Position numbers and translations under genes: made by a program | Notes under the pieces: model-generated | Seen by the model: the letters and a program-made list of their open reading frames with translations, nothing else | What the model was told of the DNA's origin: nothing | Databases searched by the model: none | Shown here: positions 58,713 to 59,532 of the stretch, piece after piece | Numbering within the stretch: the stretch's first letter is position 1 | Layout of the letters: the number at the start of each line of letters is the position of its first letter | Assembly: GCF_029227855.1 (NCBI RefSeq) | Contig: NZ_CP074357.1 | DNA from: Escherichia coli | GTDB lineage: Bacteria; Pseudomonadota; Gammaproteobacteria; Enterobacterales; Enterobacteriaceae | Reading direction: 5' to 3' (one strand) | Length of the DNA stretch: 64,000 nucleotides

Positions 58713-59532
58713 GGCACTGTTGCAAAGTTAGCGATGAGGCAGCCTTTTGTCTTATTCAAAGGCCTTACATTTCAAAAACTCTGCTTACCAGGCGCATTTC
58801 GCCCAGGGGATCACCATAATAAAATGCTGAGGCCTGGCCTTTGCGTAGTGCACGCATCACCTCAATACCTTTGATGGTGGCGTAAGCCGTCTTCATGGAT
58901 TTAAATCCCAGCGTGGCGTTGATTATCCGTTTCAGTTTGCCATGATCGCATTCAATCACGTTGTTCCGGTACTTAATCTGTCGGTGTTCAACGTCAGACG
59001 GGCACCGGCCTTCGCGTTTGAGCAGAGCAAGCGCGCGACCATAGGCGGGCGCTTTATCCGTGTTGATGAATCGTGGGATCTGCCACTTCTTCACGTTGTT
59101 GAGGATTTTACCCAGAAACCGGTATGCAGCTTTGCTGTTACGACGGGAGGAGAGATAAAAATCGACAGTGCGGCCCCGGCTGTCGACGGCCCGGTACAGA
59201 TACGCCCAGCGGCCATTGACCTTCACGTAGGTTTCATCCATGTGCCACGGGCAAAGATCGGAAGGGTTACGCCAGTACCAGCGCAGCCGTTTTTCCATTT
59301 CAGGCGCATAACGCTGAACCCAGCGGTAAATCGTGGAGTGATCGACATTCACTCCGCGTTCAGCCAGCATCTCCTGCAGCTCACGGTAACTGATGCCGTA
59401 TTTGCAGTACCAGCGTACGGCCCACAGAATGATGTCACGCTGAAAATGCCGGCCTTTGAATGGGTTCATGTGCAGCTCCATCAGCAAAAGGGGATGATAA
59501 GTTTATCACCACCGACTATTTGCAACAGTGCC
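58713..59532 (-). mobile_element. IS26 variant (Tnp26 G184N), inverted relative to the other copies
   Basis: IRs at 58713 and 59519-59532; same two-nucleotide variant and synonymous change as the copy at 24675. Confidence 0.95.
58765..59469 (-). CDS. tnp26: IS26 transposase, G184N variant
   Basis: ..KRIINATLGF.. Confidence 0.95.
   Translation of the reverse strand: MNPFKGRHFQRDIILWAVRWYCKYGISYRELQEMLAERGVNVDHSTIYRWVQRYAPEMEKRLRWYWRNPSDLCPWHMDETYVKVNGRWAYLYRAVDSRGRTVDFYLSSRRNSKAAYRFLGKILNNVKKWQIPRFINTDKAPAYGRALALLKREGRCPSDVEHRQIKYRNNVIECDHGKLKRIINATLGFKSMKTAYATIKGIEVMRALRKGQASAFYYGDPLGEMRLVSRVFEM

What the first reader, a model, noticed from the sequence alone, without database searches (positions are those of the whole stretch)
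58713..59532. Second G184N IS26 copy, the only inverted copy, sharing the same silent change
This copy carries the identical GGC-to-AAC change and the same synonymous ccgcga-to-ccacga change as the copy at 24675. The two variant copies therefore share ancestry despite opposite orientation and 33 kb separation. Inverted IS26 pairs are substrates for inversion of the intervening segment.
Basis: seen in the sequence. Interest (0 to 1): 0.4.

Follow-up and report, generated by a model that had tools for sequence, protein, structure and literature searches.

The report
Known IS26-v1 copy flipped by inversion
This is an ordinary copy of IS26-v1, a well-known hyperactive variant of the resistance-gene-shuffling element IS26, and it points backwards because a neighbouring ordinary IS26 inverted the 8-kb stretch that carries it.

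Summary
The 820-bp IS26 at 58713-59532 (minus strand) is base-for-base identical to the copy at 24675-25494. Both differ from the four other complete copies at the same three bases: CCG>CCA (silent, codon 132) and GGC>AAC (G184N). This haplotype is IS26-v1, a published and very common variant with enhanced cointegration activity.

The window is E. coli IncHI2 plasmid NZ_MZ152088.1, positions 128001-192000. The whole plasmid has three IS26-v1 copies (one straddles the window start) and three inverted IS26 copies.

The reversed orientation is not explained by the v1 pair. The wild-type IS26 at 56908 and an inverted wild-type IS26 just past the window end (65999-66818) carry the same 8 bp, GATTCAAG/CTTGAATC, in inverted configuration. 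Both reconstructed pre-inversion junctions occur intact at 100% identity in other plasmids. So intramolecular copy-in transposition inverted 57728-65998, and the v1 copy rode along.

No 8-bp flank links the two v1 copies. The predicted 25.5-58.7-kb inversion isomer is absent from 72,556 plasmids and 5,426 E. coli genomes. Related plasmids carry v1, wild-type or hybrid alleles at the same sites. Already known; low interest.

The parts
58713..59532 (-). Complete IS26-v1 copy (820 bp, 14-bp terminal inverted repeats GGCACTGTTGCAAA at both ends)
   Evidence: 100% identical to 24675-25494
58765..59469 (-). tnp26 gene encoding Tnp26 G184N (234 aa; RefSeq WP_001067858.1); DDE_Tnp_IS240 domain
58918..58920 (-). 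Codon 184 AAC (Asn) instead of GGC (Gly)
59074..59076 (-). Codon 132 CCA instead of CCG (silent; changed base at 59074)
24675..25494 (+). Identical IS26-v1 copy between a degenerate IS3-family remnant downstream of blaLAP-2 and aac(3)-IId
   Evidence: the same junction is present in 57 plasmids, 36 of them at 100.0%
1..95 (+). Last 95 bp of a third IS26-v1 copy (record 127276-128095); its variant positions lie outside the window
56908..57727 (+). Wild-type IS26: one of the two copies bracketing the inverted segment. Its IRL-side flank (delta-Tn1721 tnpA) is the ancestral donor flank
57728..57735 (.). GATTCAAG, one copy of the 8-bp target duplication. Its reverse complement CTTGAATC follows the inverted IS26 at window-equivalent 66819-66826
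   Evidence: the uninterrupted target is seen in other plasmids
57728..64000 (.). Inverted segment, continuing to 65998 beyond the window. Order: IncN iterons, truncated rep, IS26-v1, delta-tetA, delta-ISCR2, lysR, floR, virD2-like gene, ISCR2, then (off window) a hypothetical gene and a recombinase gene
57810..57983 (.). IncN-type iterons, 37 bp x 4.7 copies
   Evidence: replicon typed IncN in the record
58031..58712 (-). 5'-truncated Rep3-family (IncN) replication initiator gene. The annotated ORF borrows its first 47 nt from the IS26-v1 end
59533..59783 (+). tet(A) remnant (nt 922-1172 of 1200), abutting the IRL end of IS26-v1

Best explanation
The element at 58713-59532 is an intact copy of IS26-v1, the known IS26 variant with three base changes, two of which give Tnp26 G184N. 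It sits at a junction between a truncated IncN rep gene and a tet(A) remnant, in the multiresistance region of IncHI2 plasmid NZ_MZ152088.1. Its reversed orientation is a passenger effect. The wild-type IS26 whose IRL end abuts delta-Tn1721 (now at 56908) carried out an intramolecular replicative (copy-in) transposition 'in trans' into the octamer CTTGAATC, which lay between the IncN iterons and IS4321. That event made a second, inverted wild-type IS26 (window-equivalent 65999-66818) and flipped the 8,271 bp between the two copies (57728-65998), including the IS26-v1. Before the event the v1 copy pointed the same way as the other window copies. Shown: the sequence identity, the v1 haplotype, the inverted 8-bp duplication, and the existence of both pre-inversion junctions in other plasmids. 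Inferred: the order of events, and one-step transposition rather than insertion followed by homologous recombination. Identity with the 24675 copy reflects common membership of the abundant v1 lineage. The three v1 copies most likely arrived with separate IS26-v1-bounded modules, or acquired the allele by IS-IS recombination. A local copy-out from one another is less likely.
For: 820/820 identity and the three-base G184N haplotype. The literature defines IS26-v1 as three nucleotide differences, two causing G184N, with enhanced cointegration (PMC9412624; PMC8477213; PMC9019673). It is abundant: 1,385 v1 against 6,266 IS26 transposases in Klebsiella/Escherichia/Salmonella plasmids, often in the same replicon (bioRxiv 10.1101/2024.02.20.581145). 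The window equals NZ_MZ152088.1:128001-192000. Whole-plasmid IS26 inventory: the only 8-bp flank match with one mismatch or fewer among all pairs is the IRR flank of the 56908 copy with the IRL flank of the inverted 65999 copy, GATTCAAG, exact. Both bracketing copies are wild-type and identical. The reconstructed uninterrupted target (iterons-CTTGAATC-IS4321) is present as a single 1000-bp piece at 100% identity in five plasmids. One of them, pEC_G4W1, carries IS26-v1(+)-delta-rep-iterons-IS4321. The reconstructed donor junction delta-Tn1721-IS26-GCGCGACG... is present full-length at 100% in 10 or more plasmids. One is IncHI2 pD208, where the recombinase-ISCR2-floR-lysR-tet(A) block lies un-inverted in the same backbone context. 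This flank pattern is the published signature of IS26 intramolecular transposition in trans (He et al. 2015, PMC4471558).
Against: No database plasmid has both the delta-tetA/IS26-v1/delta-rep junction and the uninterrupted target, so the immediate pre-inversion ancestor was not found. All plasmids examined with that junction already show the IS26(+)-rep-IS26(-) arrangement. The same final structure could arise in two steps: an inverted IS26 is acquired at CTTGAATC with a direct duplication, then homologous recombination occurs with the 56908 copy. A published analysis of related plasmid pOYZ4 pairs the other flank of the 65999-equivalent copy (CGTCGCGC) with an imperfect 7-bp match next to another IS26, arguing for a 40-kb inversion (PMC9019673). 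The history is therefore multi-step and not fully resolved. Allele calls in repeated IS copies can be distorted by assembly polishing.
Confidence: 0.85

Rival explanations
1. The 58713 copy was made directly from the 24675 copy (or the reverse) by intramolecular replicative transposition in inverted orientation, so the 33-kb interval between them is itself an inverted segment.
For: The two copies are identical, inverted, and share the rarer allele. IS26-v1 is reported to be more active.
Against: The required inverted 8-bp duplication is absent: IRL/IRR flanks are CCATAGTC/AGAGTGAG for one copy and AGCAGGAC/GTCTAACG for the other. The delta-rep/IS26-v1 junction and the IS26-v1/delta-tetA junction each occur with the v1 allele on their own in many plasmids (pEC_G4W1). 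The 24675 junction is conserved in 57 plasmids. The orientation is already explained by the 56908/65999 event.
Confidence: 0.04
2. The two inverted IS26-v1 copies act as a live recombination switch. RecA-dependent crossover between them produces a mixed population of plasmid isomers with 25.5-58.7 kb in either orientation.
For: 820 bp of perfect inverted homology. Homologous recombination between IS26 copies is documented in this plasmid family (PMC9019673). Hybrid IS26/IS26-v1 alleles at fixed sites in relatives suggest that IS-IS recombination does happen.
Against: Neither predicted isomer junction occurs cleanly in 72,556 plasmids. J1 gave 0 records at 80% coverage or more. J2 gave one fragmented three-piece hit. 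J1 also gave 0 of 5,426 complete E. coli genomes. A single consensus assembly cannot show minority isomers either way.
Confidence: 0.15
3. The inversion of 57728-65998 arose in two steps: an inverted IS26 was acquired at CTTGAATC with a direct 8-bp duplication, then homologous recombination with the 56908 copy followed. It was not one-step intramolecular transposition.
For: This gives exactly the same final flank pattern. He et al. discuss the alternative.
Against: It needs two events plus cointegrate resolution, because IS26 forms only cointegrates (PMC8477213 abstract). No relative was found with an IS26 flanked by a direct CTTGAATC duplication; the top hits for the target are uninterrupted.
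Confidence: 0.1
4. The v1 alleles at one or both copies are assembly or polishing artefacts of a multi-copy repeat.
For: Close relatives show every combination of the 459 and 613/614 alleles at the same sites, a pattern that short-read polishing of repeats can create.
Against: The v1 allele with identical flanks recurs in many independent assemblies: 36 records at 100.0% for the 24675 junction, and 5 full-junction plus dozens of half-junction records at 100% for 58713.
Confidence: 0.05

Closest known systems
IS26-v1 (Pong, Harmer, Ataide & Hall 2019, FEMS Microbiol Lett 366:fnz031; annotation guide Harmer, Pong & Hall 2021)
   Same: 820 bp, the same terminal repeats, and three nucleotide differences from IS26, two of which give Tnp26 G184N. 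It encodes the same protein as RefSeq WP_001067858.1.
   Different: Nothing detected. The exact position of the third (silent) change in the published v1 could not be checked because the Pong 2019 paper is not held.
IS26-mediated intramolecular replicative transposition in trans giving inversion (He et al. 2015, mBio, PMC4471558)
   Same: Two oppositely oriented, identical IS26 copies bracket a segment and carry the same 8 bp in inverted configuration. The target is uninterrupted in relatives.
   Different: One partner lies outside the window.
IncHI2 multiresistance plasmids of the pOYZ4 / MRCP type (Front Microbiol 2022, PMC9019673)
   Same: Same backbone family and modules: aac(3)-IId, sul3, delta-Tn1721 tet(A), floR-ISCR2 (ISVsa3), IS4321. 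About ten IS26/IS26-v1 copies without direct duplications, one copy lacking IRR, and the CGTCGCGC flank.
   Different: This plasmid additionally carries the IncN rep fragment next to IS26-v1 and the GATTCAAG/CTTGAATC inversion, which the passages read from that paper do not mention.

Membership tests
IS26 (IS6/IS26 family) | 820-bp element bounded by 14-bp perfect terminal inverted repeats GGCACTGTTGCAAA | tested here: met
IS26 (IS6/IS26 family) | Single 234-aa DDE transposase (Tnp26) | tested here: met
   Intact 234-aa ORF. Pfam DDE_Tnp_IS240, E = 5e-49
IS26 (IS6/IS26 family) | Near-identity to reference IS26 copies | tested here: met
   817/820 identical to the four wild-type copies in the window
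IS26-v1 variant | Three nucleotide differences from IS26, two of which produce G184N | tested here: met
   IS positions 459, 613 and 614. Definition quoted in PMC9412624
IS26-v1 variant | [quoted passage not shown] | not testable with these tools
   Reported by Pong et al. 2019, as cited. It needs a mating-out assay
Simple copy-in insertion of this copy | Direct 8-bp target-site duplication flanking the element | tested here: not met
   Flanks are CGTTAGAC | GTCCTGCT. This is typical of IS26 in resistance regions and does not affect identity as IS26
Intramolecular inversion linking the two v1 copies (24675 and 58713) | The same 8 bp in inverted configuration at corresponding ends of the two copies | tested here: not met
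   no match with one mismatch or fewer
Intramolecular inversion by wild-type IS26 (56908 and 65999) | Two inverted, identical IS copies with the same 8 bp in inverted configuration | tested here: met
   GATTCAAG / CTTGAATC, exact; both copies wild-type and identical
Intramolecular inversion by wild-type IS26 (56908 and 65999) | Uninterrupted target and original donor junction exist in related DNA | tested here: met
   Target: five plasmids at 100% over 1000 bp. Donor: 10 or more plasmids at 100% over 1620 bp, including IncHI2 pD208
Recombination-driven invertible segment between the v1 pair | Both orientations observed, in the population or among relatives | tested here: not met
   Predicted junctions are absent from the plasmid and E. 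coli genome collections. Within-isolate heterogeneity cannot be tested without reads

The most novel reading that the evidence does not exclude
The 459 (silent) and 613/614 (G184N) markers occur in all four combinations at the very same two insertion sites in closely related IncHI2 plasmids. If these are real rather than polishing artefacts, IS26 and IS26-v1 copies resident in one plasmid exchange internal sequence frequently, by gene conversion or crossover inside the IS. The hyperactive G184N allele could then spread between fixed IS26 sites without any transposition, and IS alleles would be unreliable markers of module ancestry.
Probability: 0.4. Interest if true: 0.3.

Novelty: already known. 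Interest (0 to 1): 0.12.

Why it matters
It matters little as a discovery. IS26-v1, its G184N change and its coexistence with IS26 in IncHI2 resistance plasmids are published, and IS26-driven inversions are textbook for this element. The practical value is interpretive. Orientation and allele identity of IS26 copies should be read together with the 8-bp flanks across the whole replicon. Here that reading shows the inverted v1 copy is a passenger of a wild-type IS26 event whose partner lies outside the window. It also shows that IS26 alleles at fixed sites vary among relatives.

Tried and rejected
1. I looked for direct or inverted 8-bp duplications linking the two (or three) IS26-v1 copies across the whole plasmid. 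None was found, even allowing one mismatch.

2. I built the two junctions predicted for the isomer with 25.5-58.7 kb inverted and searched for them. J1 gave 0 records at 80% coverage or more in both the plasmid and E. coli genome collections. J2 gave only one fragmented three-piece hit.

3. I looked for the immediate pre-inversion ancestor, with delta-tetA/IS26-v1/delta-rep and an intact CTTGAATC target in one record. It was not found, and the relatives checked already carry the inversion.

4. I tried to read Pong et al. 2019 directly. It is not held, so the definition of IS26-v1 comes from papers that cite it.

5. I considered whether the near-match between the left flank of the 2346 copy (CTCGCTCT) and the reverse complement of the right flank of the 24675 copy (CTCACTCT) meant anything. 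I rejected it: the geometry is wrong for either a deletion or an inversion signature, and it has one mismatch.

Full report
**Observation**

The sequence at 58713-59532, read on the minus strand, is a complete 820-bp IS26 and is identical at all 820 positions to the copy at 24675-25494. The window holds six complete copies: 2346, 24675, 29250, 32850 and 56908 on the plus strand, and 58713 on the minus strand. It also holds a copy truncated at IS position 782 (6719-7500) and the last 95 bp of a copy cut by the window start.

The four other complete copies are identical to one another. They differ from the two variant copies at exactly three bases:
- IS position 459, G>A. This changes codon 132 from CCG to CCA and is silent.
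- IS positions 613-614, GG>AA. This changes codon 184 from GGC to AAC, giving G184N.

The transposase ORF is intact (234 aa) and matches Pfam DDE_Tnp_IS240.

**What the variant is**

Three nucleotide differences from IS26, two of which give G184N, is the published definition of IS26-v1 (PMC9412624, citing Pong et al. 2019). The variant is reported to raise cointegration activity (PMC8477213; PMC9019673). It is the second most common IS26 transposase in Klebsiella, Escherichia and Salmonella plasmids: 1,385 members against 6,266, often with both in one replicon (bioRxiv 10.1101/2024.02.20.581145). I could not read Pong et al. 2019 itself.

**Source and context**

The window is exactly E. coli plasmid NZ_MZ152088.1, positions 128001-192000. 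The plasmid is 267,429 bp and typed IncHI2A plus an IncN rep. I fetched the whole plasmid and inventoried IS26. It has ten complete copies.
- Three are IS26-v1: record 127276-128095 (straddling the window start), window 24675, and window 58713.
- Three are inverted: window 58713 (v1), window-equivalent 65999-66818 (wild-type) and 79006-79825 (wild-type).

So "second G184N copy" and "only inverted copy" are true of the window but not of the replicon.

The 58713 copy sits between two gene remnants.
- At its IRR end is a 5'-truncated Rep3-family (IncN) initiator gene. The annotated ORF borrows its first 47 nt from the IS. Four to five 37-bp iterons lie beyond it.
- At its IRL end is a tet(A) remnant, nt 922-1172 of the gene. 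It is followed by delta-ISCR2, lysR, floR, a virD2-like gene and ISCR2.

**Why this copy is inverted**

Among all pairwise comparisons of 8-bp flanks, allowing one mismatch, only one match exists. The IRR flank of the wild-type IS26 at 56908 (GATTCAAG, 57728-57735) equals the IRL flank of the inverted wild-type IS26 at 65999-66818; on the plus strand that flank reads CTTGAATC. Two oppositely oriented, identical IS26 copies carrying the same octamer in inverted configuration is the published signature of intramolecular replicative transposition in trans, which inverts the DNA between donor and target (He et al. 2015, PMC4471558).

I reconstructed both pre-inversion junctions and searched for them.
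- **Target.** Delta-rep, iterons, CTTGAATC, IS4321 occurs uninterrupted as a single 1000-bp piece at 100% identity in five plasmids. In one of them, pEC_G4W1, the arrangement is IS26-v1(+), delta-rep, iterons, IS4321, gshB.
- **Donor.** Delta-Tn1721 tnpA, IS26, GCGCGACG... occurs full-length at 100% identity in at least ten plasmids. One is IncHI2 pD208. There the recombinase, ISCR2, floR, lysR, tet(A) block follows the IS26 un-inverted, in the same backbone context.

The 8,271-bp segment 57728-65998 was therefore inverted by the wild-type IS26, and the IS26-v1 inside it was flipped as a passenger. Before that event it pointed the same way as the other window copies.

A two-step route gives the same end product and cannot be excluded: an inverted IS26 is acquired at the target, then homologous recombination follows. 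It does not change the passenger conclusion. I did not find the immediate ancestor, meaning the same delta-tetA/IS26-v1/delta-rep junction with an intact target. The relatives that share that junction already carry the inversion.

**Relationship between the two v1 copies**

No target duplication, direct or inverted, links the v1 copies.

The 24675 junction (IS3-family remnant downstream of blaLAP-2, then IS26, then aac(3)-IId) is conserved in 57 plasmids, 36 of them at 100.0% identity. The full 58713 junction occurs in only 8 records. Each half of it (delta-rep/IS26-v1 and IS26-v1/delta-tetA) is common on its own with the v1 allele. This suggests the copy marks a join between two modules that were each already bounded by IS26-v1.

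The allele at these fixed sites varies among close relatives.

| Site | Haplotype (459, 613/614) | Plasmid |
|---|---|---|
| 24675 | v1 (A, AA) | window |
| 24675 | wild-type (G, GG) | CP079936, CP090138 |
| 24675 | hybrid (G, AA) | CP068042, CP084217 |
| 24675 | hybrid (A, GG) | pL1 (CP071712) |
| 58713 | v1 (A, AA) | window, pL1 |
| 58713 | hybrid (G, AA) | CP068042 |
| 58713 | wild-type (G, GG) | CP110525 |

pL1 otherwise matches window 17344-64000 with only eight mismatches. Either IS copies exchange internal sequence by recombination, or repeat polishing scrambles these calls. In both cases identity of two copies within one plasmid is weak evidence that one was copied from the other.

**The proposed 33-kb inversion**

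The perfect 820-bp inverted pair could recombine. I built the two junctions expected for the inverted isomer.
- J1 (LAP-2 side, IS26, delta-rep) has no match at 80% coverage or more in 72,556 plasmids or in 5,426 complete E. coli genomes.
- J2 gave only a fragmented three-piece hit.

Minority isomers within the isolate cannot be assessed without reads.

**Verdict**

The object is a standard member of a known, abundant IS26 variant in a well-described plasmid family. Its orientation is explained by a classical IS26 intramolecular inversion involving a different, wild-type pair, one partner of which lies just outside the window. The implied direct relationship and the 33-kb invertible segment are unsupported. 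Novelty: already known. Interest: low.

Noticed in passing
window 1-95 (record NZ_MZ152088.1 127276-128095): A third IS26-v1 copy (A, AA haplotype) forms the left boundary of the resistance region next to the IncHI2 backbone.
   Followed up: yes
window 49869-51419 and 55357-56907: A 1,551-bp perfect direct repeat of truncated Tn1721/TnAs1 tnpA flanks the tet(A)-tetR module. This is a deletion/excision substrate of the kind described for two delta-Tn1721 copies in PMC9019673.
   Followed up: partly
related plasmids at the sites equivalent to window 24675 and 58713 (L001, L012, L013, L014, L015, L016, L017): All four combinations of the 459 and 613/614 alleles (v1, wild-type, G-AA, A-GG) occur at the same two insertion sites in close relatives. 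This indicates either recombination inside IS26 copies or repeat-polishing artefacts.
   Followed up: partly
window 36909-37043: Six of the eight differences between the window and plasmid pL1 over 46.6 kb cluster inside the IS1 copy downstream of sul3. It is annotated IS1B in the window's record and IS1A in pL1. This is another case of an IS allele differing at a fixed site.
   Followed up: no
window 6719-7500: An IS26 copy truncated after position 782 and lacking IRR. It matches the 'copy 8 lacking IRR' described for pOYZ4 in PMC9019673.
   Followed up: no
window 58031-58759: The annotated IncN-type rep ORF starts 47 nt inside the IS26-v1 end (TTG start), so the gene is 5'-truncated and fused to IS sequence. 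Whether it is expressed, for example from an IS26-end hybrid promoter, or functional is unknown. The plasmid is still typed IncN by MOB-suite.
   Followed up: partly
window 29242-29249 and window-equivalent 65991-65998: The flank pair AGCCGACG / CGTCGCGC is the imperfect 7-bp inverted match used in PMC9019673 to argue for a 40-kb IS26 inversion in pOYZ4. Here the GCGCGACG flank is instead part of a widely conserved delta-Tn1721-IS26 junction, so that published inference may need re-examination.
   Followed up: partly
pL1 (L001) versus NZ_MZ152088.1 (L006): The tellurite-resistance backbone block and the IS26-aph(3')-Ia-IS26 unit lie in opposite orientation and position in the two otherwise near-identical plasmids. 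Window 1-17343 (dfrA14, arr-2, mph(A), qnrS1, blaCTX-M-55, ISEcp1) has no collinear counterpart at the corresponding place in the 68-kb stretch of pL1 that was fetched. Large IS26-bounded rearrangements therefore distinguish close relatives.
   Followed up: no
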